From a virus (lineage: Duplodnaviria; Caudoviricetes), in IMG/VR virus record IMGVR_UViG_3300043414_000985, positions 1-38,188 of that record: DNA of 38,188 nucleotides. The stretch is one strand, 5' to 3'. Of the stretch, positions 2,295-34,904 are shown in pieces. The translations under genes and the position numbers were made by a program. The notes beneath the pieces were generated by a model that made no database searches, was not told the origin of the DNA, and saw nothing but the letters and a program-made list of their open reading frames with translations. The number at the start of each line of letters is the position of its first letter. The first letter of the stretch is position 1.

Positions 2295-2714
2295 ATGTCT
2301 AGAATGAACTGCGCTGGCGAGAAGATACCCCACTTTCTGGTTAATTGCATAAACTGCAACTTGCCACCTATTTTATTTAAATATCTTATAGACAAAGAAA
2401 GTACTGTTAGCGGTTACAAGATGTCTGACCAAAGCTATTATATTTACTATGTATTTTGCGATGGCTGCCAAGAAGAAAGCTGTATGTGCTCTGGTGAGCA
2501 CAAAACTACATATTTATGGAACCGCGCAAACGATATAGAGAAAAGCGATCCATGTCCATTCTGTTTGGTAAAATATGTACAATTTGAGTTAATAGATAAC
2601 ACTTTCTGGTGTGTTGTATGCGATGACTGTCACACTAAAGGTCCAAGATCAGATGCAAAACGAGATGCCCTGGTGCTGTGGAATAGAATTGAAGATATAA
2701 AATATAATGGGTAA
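2295..2714 (+). CDS. tandem double Lar-like Zn-finger protein
   Basis: AAGGAGGT RBS; two units CxxC..YVFCDGC..LWN and CPFC..VVCDDCHTKGP..DALVLWN. Confidence 0.75.
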   Translation: MSRMNCAGEKIPHFLVNCINCNLPPILFKYLIDKESTVSGYKMSDQSYYIYYVFCDGCQEESCMCSGEHKTTYLWNRANDIEKSDPCPFCLVKYVQFELIDNTFWCVVCDDCHTKGPRSDAKRDALVLWNRIEDIKYNG

Positions 2715-3045
2715 ATATTATACTAACGCGCCAGAGTTGTATTTTGTGCCGTATGGACCAGGACAGCCAACGCGGGTTCTTTGCGTAAAAAAAGATGGAG
2801 AAATTTTAGTAGATACAGCAATGGCCCCAAAACATATACAGAGCCAAAACAAACAATATTGGTATTTTTGGTACACCAAAGAGTACGAAGAGCGAACATA
2901 TAGTTATTTAGAGGCAGAATTAGAAATCGTTAATGCTAAAAAAATTTCCCATACAAAAACAGAGCTGGGGTTAATTCTAAAAGAATATTTCACATTAATT
3001 AGTAAATATATTTCTAACAAAAATGGAATAATATATAATGGGTGA
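2707..3045 (+). CDS. hypothetical protein, KTELGLILKEYF family member 1
   Basis: Overlapping start/stop coupling; motif at 2956-2991. Confidence 0.75.
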   Translation: MGKYYTNAPELYFVPYGPGQPTRVLCVKKDGEILVDTAMAPKHIQSQNKQYWYFWYTKEYEERTYSYLEAELEIVNAKKISHTKTELGLILKEYFTLISKYISNKNGIIYNG

Positions 3046-3289
3046 AGCTATTGCAAACTCGTACTATAGGCTTTGTTTTCCAACCGCAAGCCTTTATTCG
3101 CAAATGGAAGCAGAGTTTTTGGCTAACAGAGCCGCAATGCAGGTGGTAATACAGCAGGAGCTTACTATTGCTATAGAGGTTGCGCGCGCACTTTACGAGG
3201 CTAAACAAAAAACAGAGCTTGGTTTAATCTTGAAGGATTATTTTAACAGGGTAGATAGAATATGCATCCCTTTGAAAAGCCTCATATAA
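3038..3289 (+). CDS. hypothetical protein, KTELGLILKEYF family member 2
   Basis: Motif KTELGLILKDYF at 3209-3244. Confidence 0.75.
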   Translation: MGEAIANSYYRLCFPTASLYSQMEAEFLANRAAMQVVIQQELTIAIEVARALYEAKQKTELGLILKDYFNRVDRICIPLKSLI

Positions 3290-3459
3290 ATGTATTTTTT
3301 TACAGAACTCCAAGATGGGTTTGGATAGAACGATCTAAGGGGAAATCTCTTACAAAGATATTTGTAGAGCACGCAAAAGAAACAGCTGAAGAAAAAACAG
3401 AGCTTGGCTATATTTTAAAAGAATATTTTAAGAAGACGGGTAAAATATGCCTTGGATAA
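3262..3459 (+). CDS. hypothetical protein, KTELGLILKEYF family member 3
   Basis: Motif KTELGYILKEYF at 3394-3429. Confidence 0.75.
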   Translation: MHPFEKPHINVFFYRTPRWVWIERSKGKSLTKIFVEHAKETAEEKTELGYILKEYFKKTGKICLG

Positions 3460-3662
3460 ATAACACATTACATATATATTGGGCAAAGGATTATGACGAC
3501 TGGTTCTTTGGACAAAAGACTACCGATACTCCTTTAGAATCTTTCTTAAAACTTATAGGCAATAACAATAAGCAAATAAAGATGGAAATTAAATTAAAAA
3601 CAAGGATAGGATTAATTTTAAAAGAATATTTTAATAAAGTAGGAGTTGTTTGTGGAGTTTAA
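3447..3662 (+). CDS. hypothetical protein, KTELGLILKEYF family member 4
   Basis: Motif KTRIGLILKEYF at 3597-3632. Confidence 0.75.
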   Translation: MPWINNTLHIYWAKDYDDWFFGQKTTDTPLESFLKLIGNNNKQIKMEIKLKTRIGLILKEYFNKVGVVCGV

Positions 3663-5161: not shown

Positions 5162-5263
5162 TTGAACACGTCCTTGTGTTAAATCTCGTCCCTGGTTACA
5201 TACCGCCGCTTAAGACGGTATAGTCTAAGTCTGGTATAAAAAACAAAAGCTCGCCACTCACGC

Positions 5264-28131: not shown

Positions 28132-28258
28132 TTTCTTCCTCTTTTTCTTTTGTTTCTATCTCACCAGAACCCGCACACTCTATGCAGTCCACTTCCTTTA
28201 AATACCCCAAACCGGTAATTTTTTTCAATCCGCGGCACGCTGGACATCTAATTAGCAT
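28067..28258 (-). CDS. DnaJ-type Zn-finger small protein
   Basis: CPACRGLK...CIECAGSG; GAGG RBS. Confidence 0.65.
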   Translation of the reverse strand: MLIRCPACRGLKKITGLGYLKEVDCIECAGSGEIETKEKEEESDRETNERTESITAHKKKSKK

Positions 28259-28322
28259 AATTAACCCTCTTTTATATCTATATAGTGCAAAGCCGGCGAT
28301 TCATCCAGTTAATGCGCTCTAT

Positions 28323-28370
28323 ACACTATATATAGTATAAGTTGATTGGCTTATACACTACATATAGATT
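28323..28370. promoter_or_regulatory. tandem NrdR-box-like operators
   Basis: ACACTATATATAGTAT (28323-28338) and ACACTACATATAGATT (28355-28370), 32 bp apart; NrdR consensus acaCwAtATaTwGtg. Confidence 0.7.
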
Positions 28371-28383
28371 TTAAAGGTGTCGA
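28355..28383 (-). promoter_or_regulatory. candidate leftward (late) sigma70 promoter
   Basis: TCGACA-17 nt-TAGTGT on the minus strand; -10 lies inside the second box. Confidence 0.4.
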
Positions 28384-28416
28384 ATTCGCTACATTTATAA
28401 ATAGATACAACAAATG

Positions 28417-28445
28417 TTGACATAAAATATTACATGTGAGATACT
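28417..28445 (+). promoter_or_regulatory. strong rightward sigma70 promoter
   Basis: TTGACA-17 nt-GATACT with AT-rich upstream sequence. Confidence 0.8.
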
Positions 28446-28447
28446 GC

Positions 28448-28709
28448 TTGCAGATGAGAGAGATTGTTAAACAAAAACGGAGAGCAAAATGTACGAAGTT
28501 ATTGACAGGAAAACAAAACAGGTGGTAGGTGTTTACTGTTCTCTGCGCAGAGCTAGTAACAAAGCTAATAAGCTAGATTTAGAATACGGCGCTCACAGAT
28601 ATTATTGGAGGAGCATTTAATGCGTAAAGTATTGATGACATGGAATTTAAATTGAGATACGCATCTTTTTGCAGATGAGAGATTAACAACAAAAACGGAG
28701 AGCAAAATG
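28448..28709 (+). repeat. duplicated leader/RBS
   Basis: ttgcagatgagaga at 28448 and 28669; aacaaaaacggagagcaaaatg at 28470-28491 and 28688-28709. Confidence 0.9.
28489..28620 (+). CDS. small early phage protein (43 aa)
   Basis: MYEVIDRKTKQVVGVYCSLRRASNKANKLDLEYGAHRYYWRSI; GGAG RBS after promoter; not in ORF track. Confidence 0.7.
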   Translation: MYEVIDRKTKQVVGVYCSLRRASNKANKLDLEYGAHRYYWRSI

Positions 28710-28922
28710 AAAGACTTTAGAGCAAACACACTACTAGAAGACACAATTTGGGGGCTTAACAACTTCCAAAAAGAATTAAACTTAAATAACTACGGTAATT
28801 TAAGAAAAGAGCAATTAATAGAATTAATTAATAATGTACACAACAAAGTAGAGACTCTTAAAAAGTCTTTAATGAAAGAAGTGGGCTTCGAGTTTCCAGA
28901 CGCTTTTCTGGGCGGAGAGTAA
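28707..28922 (+). CDS. hypothetical protein
   Basis: Same leader/RBS as the 28489 gene. Confidence 0.75.
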   Translation: MKDFRANTLLEDTIWGLNNFQKELNLNNYGNLRKEQLIELINNVHNKVETLKKSLMKEVGFEFPDAFLGGE

Positions 28923-28923
28923 A

Positions 28924-29091
28924 ATGACATACTACATAAACAAATATACCGGAAACATCTATACTGCACACTACATTTTAAGTAGATGCATGGGAAGTTA
29001 CGACGACTTTGGCGTAACTTACTTGGAGCTTGGGACAGAACAAGCAAATAAGCTGTTAGAGAAAATGTACGCGACAGTTATTAAATTTTAA
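28924..29091 (+). CDS. hypothetical protein (55 aa)
   Basis: MTYYINKYTGNIY...; GGAG RBS, 1 nt after the previous stop. Confidence 0.6.
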   Translation: MTYYINKYTGNIYTAHYILSRCMGSYDDFGVTYLELGTEQANKLLEKMYATVIKF

Positions 29092-29149
29092 ATAAATTAA
29101 ATAGAACTATAAAGAAGCTGGTTTTTAAACTTAAAAAAGGTAATTAAAA

Positions 29150-29317
29150 ATGTCTTACATAAAAGAGTATCTAAATGAACTACAGCAAGTAAAAATATTA
29201 GTCGACTACGTAACAGCAGAAGATCGACTGCTCTTTCAAGAAAAAGGGGAAGATAATCTAATCGGCTTAGAGGCGGAGGAAGAAAAAGAAGAGCTTTATT
29301 GCTATACAGAGTTGTAA
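29150..29317 (+). CDS. acidic hypothetical protein (55 aa)
   Basis: MSYIKEYLNELQQ...EAEEEKEELYCYTEL; AAGGT RBS. Confidence 0.6.
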   Translation: MSYIKEYLNELQQVKILVDYVTAEDRLLFQEKGEDNLIGLEAEEEKEELYCYTEL

Positions 29318-29389
29318 CACAAACATCTTAGTGATAACATTTGTTTACGTTGCGATACTTGCTTTGAGTTTGGCTTGTAATGCAACGCC

Positions 29390-29415
29390 GGGGGCTTGAG
29401 CGCCCCCATTTTATT
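29390..29415 (+). terminator. intrinsic terminator-like hairpin
   Basis: gggggc ttgagc gccccc attttatt. Confidence 0.6.
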
Positions 29416-29428
29416 GTGGAGAATTTAA

Positions 29429-29629
29429 GTGGCAACAAAAAAGAGCAAAAGAGGGATGCATATCGGCGTGCGCGTGCGAGATGACACGTGGGAAGCGCTT
29501 AAAAAATATACCGAATGCTATGGAAAAACAACCAGCGGTTTAGTAAACGAGCTTATAATTAACTTCTTAAGAAACAGTGACTTACTACTTGGACCACTCA
29601 ATAAATTTAACAAGGATTGGGAAGAATGA
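29429..29629 (+). CDS. ribbon-helix-helix (Arc/CopG-like) regulator
   Basis: HIGVRVRDDTWEALKKY...TTSGLVNELI strand-helix-helix pattern. Confidence 0.7.
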   Translation: MATKKSKRGMHIGVRVRDDTWEALKKYTECYGKTTSGLVNELIINFLRNSDLLLGPLNKFNKDWEE

Positions 29630-30018
29630 GCGACGATGGACGGTCTCTTTATACAGCAAAAGAAAGAATAGAATTTGGTTCAAAGGTACAGTCACGCTGT
29701 ATTTTGAGGAATGGTAAAGTAGATTGGAGTGCTTTAGCGACTTTTGCAACAGAAATAAATGTAAACAAAACAACGCTTTACGGGTGGTATAATAGATATA
29801 AAGAAAACAACAATACAGAAGTAAAGACAAAAGAAGAATCTAATAGCGCACACTTACATATCGCAGCAGCACAAACTCAACGCACTATAAAAGAAATAGA
29901 TAAGCTGAAAATAGAAATTGACACTCTAAAGTCAGCTATTAAAGCTTTGACTAAAGAAAAAGAAATGTTAGAAAATCTAGTAGAATACTATTATCAAAAA
30001 AATAGAAGCAACAAATAA
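29626..30018 (+). CDS. HTH DNA-binding protein with C-terminal coiled coil
   Basis: ATFATEINVNKTTLYGWYNRY HTH; heptads at the C-terminus; ATGA coupling. Confidence 0.7.
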   Translation: MSDDGRSLYTAKERIEFGSKVQSRCILRNGKVDWSALATFATEINVNKTTLYGWYNRYKENNNTEVKTKEESNSAHLHIAAAQTQRTIKEIDKLKIEIDTLKSAIKALTKEKEMLENLVEYYYQKNRSNK

Positions 30019-30056
30019 TGTTTGATATAGAAAATAACAAGGATTGGGAAGAATGA
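30018..30056 (+). CDS. 12-codon coupling minigene MFDIENNKDWEE
   Basis: Starts in TAATG, ends in ATGA; contains a 23-bp copy of the RHH gene 3' end. Confidence 0.45.
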   Translation: MFDIENNKDWEE

Positions 30057-30385
30057 GAAAAAAAACAGGACAATTGCAGCCAATCTATAGCGCAATCGAC
30101 GTAAAAGAACTACTAGAGCAATATAAGTACGCTGTTACAGAAAGAGAAGCTTTTATATTAGAAAAACGATTAGAACTATACACTCTTGAAGAAATCGCTG
30201 TTTTAATAGAGCGCACTAGAGACAGAGTTAGACAATTAGAGAGACAAGCGCAGACTAAACTTTTATCAGCATGCGCTGGCGTACCCATGTTTTCTCGACA
30301 AATAAATGAAGGACCGGAAAAAGAAATTACTGTATCCGCACGCATGATAAGAGAAAGTCTTAATAATAAGTATCGCTTATCTTAA
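30053..30385 (+). CDS. sigma-70 region 4 domain protein
   Basis: TEREAFILEKR...TLEEIAVLIERTRDRVRQLERQAQTKL. Confidence 0.85.
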   Translation: MRKKTGQLQPIYSAIDVKELLEQYKYAVTEREAFILEKRLELYTLEEIAVLIERTRDRVRQLERQAQTKLLSACAGVPMFSRQINEGPEKEITVSARMIRESLNNKYRLS

Positions 30386-31330: not shown

Positions 31331-31564
31331 TCACCAAAAAACATTATGTCGTTTCTTTTCCTCCGCAAGAGGATCTTCATAAGCCAAATTACCCGAAAGC
31401 GCGTCACGATAAAAGTCTCGCTTCTCTCGCCAGTACTCTCGCTTAACAGTGCTCGTCATATATCTGTGCTGACACTCGTGGTACTTAGCTGTGTCGCTAA
31501 ACTGTCTTTCAGCGATAATACTTTCCGAGACTGCTTCTAAGTCGTCATTAATTCCATTCCGCAT
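31331..31564 (-). CDS. hypothetical protein
   Basis: 77-aa ORF overlapping the end of the initiator gene. Confidence 0.6.
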   Translation of the reverse strand: MRNGINDDLEAVSESIIAERQFSDTAKYHECQHRYMTSTVKREYWREKRDFYRDALSGNLAYEDPLAEEKKRHNVFW

Positions 31565-32577
31565 TGTTGGACACTCACTCTAGCCTCTAGCTCCCTGGCT
31601 GCCATAGCCATCTCTTCTTTGCTAACACGCGCTACACGTCGAGACGGAGGTACTGCTCTAATCGCAACAGACTGTATAGCCGACTGTAGTAATGCTTTCT
31701 GTTCTGCAGACGGCGCAACTGCTGGCTTGCTCTCAGAGGGCTTAGTAGTGGGGATGGGGGTTGGAACATGTTTTGGCCCAAAACTTTTTGGCTGCTGCGC
31801 TTGTGTCTTAGTTCTTTGTTGTGCTTGTAATATTTCCTGCTCACTTTCAACAATGTCGTTATAACGCTCTCCATTGAGCCAGGAAGATAGATGTGGAACA
31901 TCCGCTACCCAAGCATTAGCTCTAACCTTAAAATCGCGCTCATCGAATTGCAAGCGTAATTTGAGGCATAAATCCGAGACGGTTAAGTTCTTATATTTTT
32001 TAAGCTGTGCTTTTAGGGCGGAGAGGGCTTTTGGTTTGCTACCTTTCTTGCATTTAGAACGATGCAGGGTCCAAAGCTCTTCAAACTCTGCGTCATGGTT
32101 CTTTTTATTTTGAAGAGAAGCACGAGGATCGCACTCGGTGCGATCAATATTCTTATCTTTCTTAATCTTAGATCTAGATCTTAGATCTTCTATAGTAGTT
32201 ATGCCGTTTCGGCGTGTACAGTTCTGCCCTTTCGGCGGGTCTAGTTCTGCCGTTTCGGCATAACTGGAAAGAGCATTAACAATTGCTTTAAAATCAACAA
32301 GATAGTAAGATTTTGCAGGCACGCCTCGACGAGTGATGCGCACAAACCTAGAGCATGCCTTTTTGGCGTTTAAGAGTTCTTTAGTACCCAGATGTGTCTC
32401 TTCGATTAGCTGCGCATCGGTTGCACAAAATTCTTCTTCTGTGCTTACTTGTGCACGCCAACATAGCTGCGAAAGCAAAATAGCCCCAACAGTAGATTTG
32501 GTAATATTTTTAAAGGCAGGTTGGTAACTTATAACGCGACGAGAAAGCTGTTTTAGAATGCTTACGGCAGTATCCAT
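31537..32577 (-). CDS. phage replication initiator (lambda O-like architecture)
   Basis: N-terminal winged-HTH-like region (GAILLSQL), iteron-encoding linker, C-terminal FEELW..KKGSKPKA..HLSSWLNGERY; GAGGA RBS before ATG 32577. Confidence 0.85.
   Translation of the reverse strand: MDTAVSILKQLSRRVISYQPAFKNITKSTVGAILLSQLCWRAQVSTEEEFCATDAQLIEETHLGTKELLNAKKACSRFVRITRRGVPAKSYYLVDFKAIVNALSSYAETAELDPPKGQNCTRRNGITTIEDLRSRSKIKKDKNIDRTECDPRASLQNKKNHDAEFEELWTLHRSKCKKGSKPKALSALKAQLKKYKNLTVSDLCLKLRLQFDERDFKVRANAWVADVPHLSSWLNGERYNDIVESEQEILQAQQRTKTQAQQPKSFGPKHVPTPIPTTKPSESKPAVAPSAEQKALLQSAIQSVAIRAVPPSRRVARVSKEEMAMAARELEARVSVQQCGMELMTT
32151..32259. other. replication origin candidate: three 17-bp iterons plus AT-rich repeats
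   Basis: AGTT(A/C)TGCC(G/C)TTTCGGC at 32197, 32220, 32243 (23-bp period) next to tcttaatcttagatctagatcttagatctt. Confidence 0.75.
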
Positions 32578-32606
32578 ATCTCTAATCCTCAAAATTAAAA
32601 TTCTAG

Positions 32607-32635
32607 TTGACTTGAGGGCTTAGTGACTTTATACT
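32607..32635 (+). promoter_or_regulatory. antisense sigma70 promoter 1
   Basis: TTGACT-17 nt-TATACT. Confidence 0.75.
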
Positions 32636-32812
32636 GGCTTTGTTACGTCAGCAGTGACGTAACTAGTTAAGAGCCAATATAAGTGACGACGAAATGCTTG
32701 GCAGCTCGGCGTCGTCACTAGACCTTTCAAATTCCAACATCCTATGTTTACCTTTTGCTAAAATCCTTTCAGCAGGTCTATTAAGTATGCCACGCGGATG
32801 TTTGGCGATCAA

Positions 32813-32842
32813 CTAATTTAGAATGCTTACGGCAGTATCCAT
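32813..32842 (-). CDS. minigene MDTAVSILN (copy of the initiator N-terminus)
   Basis: AGGGGGA RBS; first 8 codons identical to the initiator, then AAT TAG. Confidence 0.5.
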   Translation of the reverse strand: MDTAVSILN

Positions 32843-32872
32843 ACAATAAATCCCCCTTTTTTTAAAAAAATG

Positions 32873-32901
32873 TTGACTGGAGGATTTAGTGACGCTATAG
32901 T
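32873..32901 (+). promoter_or_regulatory. antisense sigma70 promoter 2
   Basis: TTGACT-17 nt-TATAGT, homologous spacer. Confidence 0.7.
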
Positions 32902-33045
32902 GACGAGGCTAACTGTTCTCGTATGTGACGCCGTTTTCCGGCAAGAAAAGCACGGCGTCACTAAATCTAATCCCACTCTAACTTAAAGTTAATTCCCTTA
33001 CAAGAAAAAACTATTCACTAAATCCCTAGTGTTTTAAAATAATAG

Positions 33046-33075
33046 TTGACTTTAGGGCTTAGTGACTTTTATGGT
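33046..33075 (+). promoter_or_regulatory. antisense sigma70 promoter 3 (degenerate)
   Basis: TTGACT-18 nt-TATGGT; spacer nearly identical to promoter 1. Confidence 0.5.
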
Positions 33076-33080
33076 CCGTG

Positions 33081-33260
33081 TCATATATTTTTTTTCTCTT
33101 CCTTCACAAGCTGCCTGTCAATTAATTTATCTAAATCGACAGTTAGAGCGTTTATAACACTCATACCCATTGTGTACTCTTGTTGTAGTCTATAAATAGC
33201 AGCATCTAATGCGCCCATAGCAACTCGTATTTCTAAAAAATCTTCTTTATCAATTTCCAC
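33081..33260 (-). CDS. hypothetical protein (59 aa)
   Basis: GTG start, MEIDKEDFLEIRVAMGALDAAIYRLQQ...; overlaps the upstream stop; not in ORF track. Confidence 0.6.
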   Translation of the reverse strand: MEIDKEDFLEIRVAMGALDAAIYRLQQEYTMGMSVINALTVDLDKLIDRQLVKEEKKNI

Positions 33261-33698: not shown

Positions 33699-34904
33699 TT
33701 ACCCCTTCACACAAACAACTTGTTTAAGTGTGTGTACAATATCCACCAAATCTAATTGTGCCGCCATAACTTTAGCTATGTCTTTATAGGCTCCAGGAGT
33801 TTCGTCAATAACATTTATATCTTTTCGACACTCTACACCTTCGGTGGCAAGCGCATGGTCTTCAAGAGAAAATAATTGCTTAGCCTTGTTCCTAGATAAA
33901 CTCCGACCAGCGCCGTGAGAGCAGCTATTAAAAGACTCTGGATTCCCCTTTCCTCTAACAATAAAAGATTTAGCACCCATAGACCCAGGAATAATGCCCA
34001 ATTTATCTTTTTCTGCACAAACTGCCCCTTTTCTTGTCAACCAAACCTGTTTATCAAAATGCATTTCCTGTTGCACATAGTTATGGTGACAGTTAATGGC
34101 TTGCTCTAAAGTTTTGAATGGCTTAGTAACAGATCGTAATGCTTCTAGCGTTGCACCCATCATTAGCTCTCTGTTTAGCAGCGCGAATTGTTGTGCAAAA
34201 TCTACAGCCATTACATAATCGGAAAAACTGTTTGTTCCTTCGTCTAAATAGCATAGGTCTTGATCTGCTATTTCTAAGCCAGGATGGTTGATGGCCATTT
34301 CTTTTTTTGCCAACTCTATAAAATAAGTTCCAATTCTATTTCCAATGCCACGAGAGCCAGAATGCAGCATTACCCATACATATTGCTCTTCATCTAAGCA
34401 AACCTCTATAAAATGGTTACCAGTTCCAAGCGTTCCAAGATGTGATGGTGCTCTCATGGCAGCTCTCTCAAAGTCGTTGTATGCCAAAGTCATGTAATAT
34501 AGAGCGCCATATAGTCTAGATTTAAAAAATCTTTGCAAATAATCCATAGGAACATTAGCCCAGGCCCCCCTATCTCGAGAGCCTCCATTGTCTGTTCTTC
34601 CATGCGGAACAGCAGCCTCTATCTTGCTGCGAAGCTCAAAAAGATTGTCTGGCAAATCCTTAGATTTTAGGGTAGTGCGTATAGCCATCATTCCACAGCC
34701 AATATCCACACCAACCGCAGCTGGAATAATAGCTTTTAACGTTGGAATTACAGAGCCTACAGTAGCGCCGCAACCCCAATGCACATCAGGCATAATAGCT
34801 ATATGCGGCCAAATAATATCCAAAGAAGCCATATTGGTTAATTGTTTTTGCGCCGTTTCTTCTATCTCTAAACTTCCGGTCCATTGCTTAATTGGTACAG
34901 GCAT
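33699..34904 (-). CDS. rtcB: RtcB-family RNA ligase
   Basis: MPDVH.G.GATVG, VGVDIGCG, LGTLGTGNHFIE, HSGSRG, CHHNY, RKGA, IPGSMG, SCSHGAGR, DETPGAYK all present. Confidence 0.97.
   Translation of the reverse strand: MPVPIKQWTGSLEIEETAQKQLTNMASLDIIWPHIAIMPDVHWGCGATVGSVIPTLKAIIPAAVGVDIGCGMMAIRTTLKSKDLPDNLFELRSKIEAAVPHGRTDNGGSRDRGAWANVPMDYLQRFFKSRLYGALYYMTLAYNDFERAAMRAPSHLGTLGTGNHFIEVCLDEEQYVWVMLHSGSRGIGNRIGTYFIELAKKEMAINHPGLEIADQDLCYLDEGTNSFSDYVMAVDFAQQFALLNRELMMGATLEALRSVTKPFKTLEQAINCHHNYVQQEMHFDKQVWLTRKGAVCAEKDKLGIIPGSMGAKSFIVRGKGNPESFNSCSHGAGRSLSRNKAKQLFSLEDHALATEGVECRKDINVIDETPGAYKDIAKVMAAQLDLVDIVHTLKQVVCVKG

What the first reader, a model, noticed from the sequence alone, without database searches (positions are those of the whole stretch)
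32580..33080. Triplicated structured leader with antisense promoters controlling the replication initiator
Seen: a 500-bp region without long ORFs holds three homologous units GTTGACT-n-AGG-n-TTAGTGAC-n-TAT forming + strand promoters (32607, 32873, 33046) that fire against the leftward rtcB-rep operon. Units 1 and 2 are followed by GTGAC-based hairpins (gttacgtca/tgacgtaac 32642-32663; agtgacgacg/cgtcgtcact 32682-32719; gtgacgccgt/acggcgtcac 32925-32961). A perfect 13-bp alternative pairing (32883-32895 with 32955-32967) excludes the local hairpin and can form only in the long mRNA. Known: antisense RNA plus alternative leader folding controls rep in pT181 and IncI/IncFII plasmids, and RNA-based immunity occurs in P4 and P1. 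Inference: stacked antisense-RNA switches for copy number or immunity, suggesting plasmid-like or RNA-controlled lysogeny, consistent with no CI or integrase in the window.
Basis: partly seen in the sequence, partly recalled or inferred. Interest (0 to 1): 0.8.

Follow-up and report, generated by a model that had tools for sequence, protein, structure and literature searches.

The report
Two stacked phage replication switches
In front of this lake phage's likely DNA-replication starter gene sit two versions of an RNA leader that related phages carry only singly; each is predicted to hide or expose the ribosome site under the control of a likely small antisense RNA, a brake known from plasmids, and the spare copy might block rival phages.

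Summary
The repeats, hairpins, 13-bp alternative helix and two of the three promoter-like sites are real. But this is not a designed triplicate. It joins two natural leader alleles, A (unit 1) and B (unit 2 plus remnant unit 3), at an exact 27-nt copy of the first nine rep codons. Contigs from other samples carry A alone or B directly on rep.

Two related phages with barely alignable initiators (L084, L163) carry the same leader once. In all four leaders an upstream strand can capture an anti-SD strand that otherwise covers the ribosome site. A backward TTGACT-17-ATG-proximal promoter keeps its -35 at 29-31 nt before the start codon. Hairpin stems co-vary while loops vary.

Best reading: pSK41/pSA564-type antisense control of initiator translation. 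Against: no transcript seen, no terminator for the antisense RNA, and the predicted switch weakens with longer 5' ends.

No Rfam match; my paper searches found no phage case. The scan has noted similar designs on other DNA (56 findings, at least 53 genomes), none sharing this sequence. The hetero-allelic stack is the new part.

The parts
31537..32577 (-). O-like replication initiator gene (346 aa); ATG at 32577
   Evidence: phrog_9773 E 1.6e-12 and phrog_270 E 2.2e-11; SD 8 nt upstream
32197..32259 (.). Three iteron-like repeats, 23-bp period, inside rep (likely origin)
   Evidence: sequence; function inferred from lambda O and RepA_N layouts
32552..32578 (-). 27-nt repeat, copy 1: first nine codons of rep
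   Evidence: D3, 100% identical
32586..32590 (-). Allele A Shine-Dalgarno (GAGGA), strand Z
   Evidence: paired in the OFF fold, -13.2 kcal/mol
32611..32627 (-). Allele A anti-SD strand Y; pairs with Z (OFF) or X (ON)
32607..32635 (+). Predicted antisense promoter A (TTGACT-17-TATACT); +1 near 32642
   Evidence: -35 invariant in 4 of 4 leaders; no transcript seen
32630..32681 (-). Allele A second hairpin (upper stem 32642-32663)
32682..32719 (.). Allele A recognition hairpin: conserved stem, variable loop
   Evidence: all listed changes in X3 rec2 and X4 rec8 fall in 32693-32708; compensatory pairs
32713..32733 (-). Allele A activator strand X
   Evidence: X/Y duplex -18.1 kcal/mol; pair probability 0.44 distal vs 0.56 local
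32784..32812 (-). Candidate sense promoter of allele A (8/12 plus TG); weak evidence
   Evidence: lies just inside the edge (32816) at which X3, X5 and X6 contigs stop matching
32813..32843 (-). 27-nt repeat, copy 2 (32817-32843): truncated rep start, 9 codons then stop; the A/B junction
   Evidence: joint 32551>32817 in X4
32851..32856 (-). Allele B Shine-Dalgarno (GGGGGA)
   Evidence: OFF duplex -15.1 kcal/mol
32873..32901 (+). Predicted antisense promoter B (TTGACT-17-TATAGT); +1 near 32908
   Evidence: no changes listed here in X4/X7 contigs
32879..32895 (-). Allele B anti-SD strand Y (3' arm of the 13-bp helix)
32925..32961 (.). Allele B recognition hairpin
32955..32975 (-). Allele B activator strand X (5' arm of the 13-bp helix)
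   Evidence: X/Y -24.2 kcal/mol; forced ON fold -47.8 vs MFE -48.5
33015..33075 (.). Unit 3: remnant with the Y/Z hairpin and -35 but no recognition hairpin and no ATG; linked to allele B
   Evidence: hairpin -17.0 kcal/mol; partial model hit, positions 109-152 of 164, E 0.23; X7 rec18 spans 32847-33066

Best explanation
The region is a tandem join of two alternative rep leaders that related phages carry singly, and each leader is predicted to be an antisense-controlled translational switch: in free mRNA an upstream strand would capture the anti-SD strand and leave the ribosome site easier to open, while a likely 80-100-nt counter-transcript would cover that strand so that the anti-SD folds over the ribosome site. 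SHOWN: the two-allele make-up and its junction; the single-copy relatives; conserved position and key bases of the backward promoter; co-varying helices; variable loops. PREDICTED: the two folds and their energies. INFERRED: that the antisense RNAs exist, that the loops set specificity, and that this limits initiator synthesis as in pSK41/pSA564. In this genome allele A would control rep, and allele B would control only a 9-codon remnant. The composite origin alone is about 0.85 likely, the antisense switch about 0.7.
For: (1) ALLELES. X5 rec12 matches 32423-32816 and then runs unlike; X3 rec3 and X6 rec24 also stop at 32816; X4 rec7 joins 32551 to 32817; X7 rec17 runs from rep into the first 9 letters of unit 2 (5 of 5 non-source runs laid, 4 studies). 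(2) HOMOLOGUES. L084 and L163 carry the leader once, before initiators that barely align with this one (BLASTP E 0.012 and 7e-5). Models built from those two alone rank unit 1 first: sequence HMM E 0.024 in 1.5 Mb; covariance model E 9e-6, with unit 2 second at E 0.058, in 95 kb. (3) PROMOTER. In 4 of 4 leaders the -35 is invariant (6 of 6), the spacer is 17, the -10 keeps positions 2, 4 and 6, 0 of 17 downstream bases are invariant, and the -35 lies 29-31 nt before ATG. (4) PAIRING. Recognition stem has A-U/C-G and C-G/U-A swaps; the X/Y helix is -18 to -24 kcal/mol against Y/Z -9 to -16 in 4 of 4, using different letters; one A-U/G-C swap in X/Y between L084 and L163. (5) SWITCHING. Cost of opening the ribosome site, free vs covered: A 5.8/14.8, B 7.3/15.5, L084 5.3/17.4, L163 4.2/14.5 kcal/mol. 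Shuffled target regions reached the free value in 0, 0, 1 and 0 of 60, and in 1 and 4 of 200 for A and B. (6) LOOPS. All 8 listed change events in X3 rec2 and all 7 listed in X4 rec8 fall in the loop (2 further X4 substitutions are not listed). In IncK plasmids loop changes, not stem changes, alter incompatibility (PMC10724649, passages).
Against: No transcript was observed. No U-tract terminator follows the recognition hairpin on the antisense strand in any of the four leaders, so the RNA's 3' end is unexplained. The predicted shift depends on the unknown mRNA 5' end: with 40 or 60 nt upstream it is A 6.9/8.2, B 7.0/3.6, L084 2.2/1.1, L163 2.3/0.0. L163's lowest-energy fold is OFF, and B pairs only 12% distally. 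Only four leaders are known, L084 was picked by eye and L163 with a pattern partly drawn from unit 1, and pair counts on two sequences do not beat shuffles (78 of 500). Part of the -35 also lies in predicted helices, so its conservation has a second possible cause. One X3 contig (rec2) has the hairpins but no -10 at the equivalent place (30 loose letters). Sense promoter candidates score only 8/12.
Confidence: 0.62

Rival explanations
1. The backward transcript works like lambda OOP, through duplex-triggered mRNA cleavage or polymerase collision, and the alternative folds matter little.
For: Same position relative to an O-like gene as pO/oop (PMC3349717, passages). Backward promoters scoring at least 10/12 lie near 6 of 23 initiator starts in this podophage family, 2.0 expected. 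The predicted switch fades with longer 5' ends.
Against: OOP overlaps the end of cII, and no such ORF lies under the predicted RNA. It does not explain an X strand that stays complementary to the anti-SD in different letters in 4 of 4 leaders.
Confidence: 0.15
2. The GTGAC/GTCAC repeats are DNA operators (or a protein-binding RNA site) for a phage regulator.
For: 6 TAGTGAC copies in 450 bp; six pairs of the stem are invariant in 4 of 4 leaders with arms 31-32 nt apart; an HTH gene is present and has a homologue in L163 (43% identity).
Against: Half-site spacing varies within the window; the distal copy in Y is replaced in L084 and L163 while pairing is kept; the motif is absent from the HTH gene's own divergent promoter region; G-U pairs favour the mRNA strand.
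Confidence: 0.1
3. One reading: three stacked switches acting in series on rep by design.
For: Two complete units with intact promoter-like sites lie in line upstream of rep; the tandem is in one contig of an independent assembly of the likely source sample (X1, depth 15).
Against: Single units in 5 of 5 other runs and in both outside phages; B ends in a 9-codon stub 235 nt before rep; unit 3 is partial; B is nearly identical to free-standing B (3 substitutions, 1 indel in 236 nt), which fits a recent join.
Confidence: 0.07
4. A cis-only switch (folding kinetics, ribosome or ligand) with no functional antisense RNA.
For: Near-equal energies of the two folds; no antisense terminator.
Against: -10 positions 2, 4, 6 and the 17-nt spacing are kept although the bases around them diverge; loops vary while stems are kept.
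Confidence: 0.06

Closest known systems
pSK41 RNAI / pSA564 RNA1 control of RepA_N translation (PMC5703833 and PMC8129170, passages read)
   Same: Antisense RNA from within the rep leader that does not cover the ribosome site; mutually exclusive ON and OFF folds sharing a middle strand; origin repeats inside rep; about 80-100 nt. L084's antisense loop holds the CGCCAA hexamer reported for pSA564 RNA1. The leader is kept while the initiator is swapped, as in pPR9.
   Different: A tailed phage, not a staphylococcal plasmid; no RepA_N Pfam hit; no sequence similarity to plasmids; no terminator on the antisense hairpin or U-tract on the OFF hairpin; loops occur in both orientations; two alleles in tandem.
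pT181 / pIP501 antisense-induced transcription attenuation (PMC5703833, passages)
   Same: A pre-emptor strand competes for the 5' arm of the hairpin that holds the ribosome site.
   Different: The OFF hairpins of units 1 and 2 are followed by ATG, not by a U-tract.
I-complex (IncI/IncB/IncK) and IncFII antisense control (PMC10724649, PMC8383071, PMC5415839, passages)
   Same: One stem-loop with an interior loop; alleles differ in the loop.
   Different: No leader ORF overlapping the rep start; the loop has no partner near the SD; activation is predicted through a nested helix, not a pseudoknot.
Lambda pO / OOP RNA (PMC3349717, passages)
   Same: Backward promoter at the start of an O-like gene in a lambdoid replication module.
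   Different: OOP is self-terminating and overlaps cII; here there is no overlapped gene, no terminator, and an SD-switching leader.
P4 CI RNA and P1 C4 RNA (recalled, not read here)
   Same: Small-RNA control upstream of phage replication functions.
   Different: Those RNAs are processed from the same-strand transcript; no Rfam match here.

Membership tests
pSK41/pSA564-type antisense translational control | Counter-promoter inside the rep leader; RNA does not cover the SD | tested here: met
   Predicted only; +1 about 65 nt upstream of ATG
pSK41/pSA564-type antisense translational control | Mutually exclusive ON/OFF folds sharing an anti-SD strand | tested here: met
   size of the shift depends on the 5' end
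pSK41/pSA564-type antisense translational control | Antisense RNA ends at an intrinsic terminator hairpin | tested here: not met
   no U-tract in 4 of 4
pSK41/pSA564-type antisense translational control | RepA_N initiator on a plasmid | tested here: not met
   no Pfam hit for Rep; full virion gene set; so it works like, but is not a member
pSK41/pSA564-type antisense translational control | RNA expressed and represses in trans | not testable with these tools
   no RNA holder listed
pT181/pIP501 attenuator | OFF hairpin is a terminator with U-tract | tested here: not met
IncI/IncFII | Leader peptide coupled to rep | tested here: not met
   no ORF with an SD overlapping or abutting the rep start; the 9-codon stub ends 235 nt upstream
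Lambda OOP | Self-terminating RNA overlapping the 3' end of cII | tested here: not met
P1 C4 / P4 CI (Rfam families) | Match to a curated model | tested here: not met
   best E 1.6, unrelated; none at gathering score
Phage-plasmid | Partition genes or shown extrachromosomal maintenance | tested here: inconclusive
   no ParA/ParB or integrase hit in 49 + 29 window scans or in the ORFs scanned from G001:C75; about 1 kb not in the window; lifestyle not testable

The most novel reading that the evidence does not exclude
These integrase-free podophages form RNA-defined incompatibility groups, and this genome has captured a rival group's antisense cassette: it makes RNA B, which shuts off the initiator of co-infecting B-type phages, while its own rep answers only to RNA A. 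That would be one-way replication exclusion by a stolen antisense allele, with unit 3 the trace of an earlier capture.
Probability: 0.2. Interest if true: 0.75.

Novelty: new variant of a known kind. Interest (0 to 1): 0.5.

Why it matters
Antisense control of initiator translation is a plasmid copy-number device. Finding it on tailed phages with no detectable integrase or partition genes suggests either a plasmid-like carrier state or a brake on lytic replication, and offers a repressor-free route to phage-phage exclusion. This locus is unusually testable: two natural alleles lie side by side, loop variants exist in nature, and each leader is under 200 nt. The general design has been noted many times in this scan, so the added value is the new RNA family, its stability across initiator swaps and the hetero-allelic stack.

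Tried and rejected
Searches that found nothing:
- Rfam: no match.
- Exact unit motif: 0 in IMG/VR; 2 in JGI metagenomes, read and judged chance.
- Hairpin pattern in IMG/VR: 23 loci, none with rep or the rest of the leader (model best E 0.13).
- Rep as single query: no loci in IMG/VR or GTDB, none in INPHARED. Leader blastn against plasmids and phages: none.
- 55 loci with distant Rep relatives: no model hit below E 0.2. Of 79 terminase-linked loci only L084 has the leader; 23 of them showed an initiator start that I examined.
- nhmmer with unit 1 or unit 2 alone did not find L084.
- No RNA holder listed; this is no evidence on expression.

Ideas rejected:
- Antisense loops pairing in trans with the rep start: duplexes only -23 and -19 kcal/mol, and natural loop variants lose the match.
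- Primer RNA for the origin: the RNA points away from the iterons.
- Assembly artefact: the join is inside one contig of a second assembly (X1) and X2 holds all sampled words, though both are sample S1.
- Circularity: window end and start do not join in frame.
- U-turn (YUNR, recalled) motif: too common to count.

Full report
Setting. The window is a 38,188-nt virus record with P22-like terminase, portal, capsid and tail genes, RecE and RecT, RtcB, an 89-aa Cro/YdaS-like HTH gene and an O-like initiator at 31537-32577 on the - strand. Holders are freshwater and viral metagenomes. No integrase, partition or S24-type repressor family was hit among the ORFs scanned (49, 29, 9 small window ORFs). 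About 1 kb of the source contig is outside the window. The host is unknown.

Observation. The promoter-like sites of units 1 and 2 are 2 of 11 sites scoring at least 10/12 in the genome; that of unit 3 is weaker. The - strand folds better than shuffles.

A composite, not a triplicate. I laid 6 of the 10 listed runs. X1, probably the source sample, holds the tandem in one contig at even depth. The other five (4 studies) show single forms. X5 matches through unit 1 and turns unlike at 32816; X3 and X6 contigs stop matching at the same base. X4 joins rep directly to unit 2 across the 27-nt repeat and X7 does so over 9 letters. X7 links unit 2 to unit 3 up to 33066. Contigs show presence, not absence, so tandem forms elsewhere are not excluded. 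The simplest history is a join between a B-type genome, cut nine codons into rep, and an A-type genome. Other duplicated gene starts in this genome (28473/28691, 29609/30036) suggest such exchange is common here (inference).

Anatomy on the mRNA. Each complete unit reads 5' to 3': strand X, a recognition hairpin, a second hairpin, strand Y, an AT-rich loop, SD (Z), ATG. Distal against local pairing is 0.44/0.56 for A and 0.12/0.86 for B. The backward promoter has its spacer in Y and its -35 just 3' of it, so the RNA would begin about 65 nt upstream of ATG and cover both hairpins and X, but not the SD.

Homologues. Among 79 IMG/VR loci fetched by terminase, L084 showed the same leader. A pattern drawn from unit 1 and L084 found one GTDB contig, L163, a collinear phage contig binned in a betaproteobacterial MAG, with one copy in that genome. 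Their initiators barely align with the window's. Models built only from L084 and L163 rank unit 1 first and unit 2 second. Across the four leaders the -35 is invariant, 29-31 nt before ATG, with a 17-nt spacer and the three key -10 bases kept, while no downstream base is. The recognition stem has two compensatory columns. X/Y is stronger than Y/Z in all four, in different letters. Loops differ and occur in both orientations; natural variants of allele A change only the loop. L084 and L163 fold at z -4.73 and -3.60.

Mechanism. Masking the predicted antisense target raises the cost of opening the ribosome site by 8-12 kcal/mol in all four leaders when the mRNA starts 20 nt before the hairpin, and shuffled targets rarely open it as well as the real one. 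With longer 5' ends the shift holds for A but drops to 0-4 kcal/mol for B, L084 and L163, so the start sites matter and are unknown. No terminator for the antisense RNA was found. Cognate duplexes (-164, -121 kcal/mol) far exceed crossed ones (-50, -38), consistent with allele-specific action. The model is therefore well supported by comparison but has no transcript behind it.

Comparison with known systems. Passages of PMC5703833 and PMC8129170 describe pSK41 and pSA564: an antisense RNA of about 83 nt binds the leader upstream of the translation start, blocks the ON fold and lets a hairpin sequester the ribosome site. This is what the element works like. It fails membership on initiator family, replicon type and terminator. 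pT181, I-complex, IncFII and OOP fit less well (passages of PMC5415839, PMC10724649, PMC8383071, PMC3349717). PMC7157519 (passages) shows RNA-based replication of plasmid prophages, but through initiator RNA with parABS. I read no supplements. A search for bacteriophage, antisense RNA, replication initiation protein and translational attenuation returned 0 papers; one for phage-plasmid, antisense RNA, replication initiator and copy number returned 6, of which I read passages of one and saw listings of five, none describing this. The library lacks most subscription papers.

Earlier scan notes. 56 findings in at least 53 genomes hold the words phage, replication initiator, leader, antisense RNA and hairpin, and several name pSK41. 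None shares sequence with this leader. I reached pSK41 by recall and searched for it before seeing those notes. They are unchecked and add no independent support.

Verdict. Observation confirmed, interpretation partly supported. An uncatalogued family of phage rep leaders likely works as a plasmid-type antisense translational switch (about 0.7). Here two alleles were stacked by recombination (about 0.85). Whether the spare allele excludes rival phages (0.2) or is a passing relic is open. New variant of a known kind; interest 0.5.

Noticed in passing
window 2707-3662 (+): Four consecutive small ORFs share a C-terminal KTELGLILKEYF-like motif; no PHROG hit.
   Followed up: no
window 28473/28691 and 29609/30036 (+): Two further pairs of genes share duplicated ribosome-site and start regions of at least 17 nt, like the duplicated rep start.
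   Followed up: partly
window 32171-32443, run X4 contig 20: The B-allele relative has a diverged iteron region and N-terminal rep segment, so leader alleles and origin specificities are shuffled.
   Followed up: no
window 32642-32663 vs run X3 rec2; loops of unit 1, unit 2, L084, L163: Hairpin loops appear in reverse-complement orientation between relatives, suggesting loop inversion as a way to make new specificities.
   Followed up: partly
L084 421-434; L163 about 5165-5178 (-): Both outside phages have a TTGA-N6-TCAA inverted repeat on a perfect-like sense -35 with no good -10, about 80 nt upstream of the hairpin; possibly an activator- or repressor-controlled promoter.
   Followed up: no
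L094, L095, L102, L107, L153, L154 (and 9/12 sites in L084, L110, L132): Backward sigma-70-like sites of at least 10/12 lie near 6 of 23 initiator starts in this podophage family, 2.0 expected; their leaders do not match this RNA model.
   Followed up: partly
window 33081-33260 (-): A 59-codon GTG ORF with a good SD overlaps the stop of the 114-aa ORF; no Pfam hit.
   Followed up: partly
window 33699-34904 (-): Intact RtcB RNA ligase in the early operon (Pfam E 1e-120); the collinear relative G001:C75 lacks it at this position.
   Followed up: no
window 28182-30385 (+): A block of small backward-facing genes between rep and terminase, including a sigma-70 region 4-like ORF (30044-30385) and an HTH/coiled-coil ORF (29617-30018).
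   Followed up: no
window 33015-33066 (-): The unit 3 hairpin is followed after 4 nt by six U and might insulate the leader from rtcB-operon read-through; its 24-nt loop argues against an efficient terminator.
   Followed up: no
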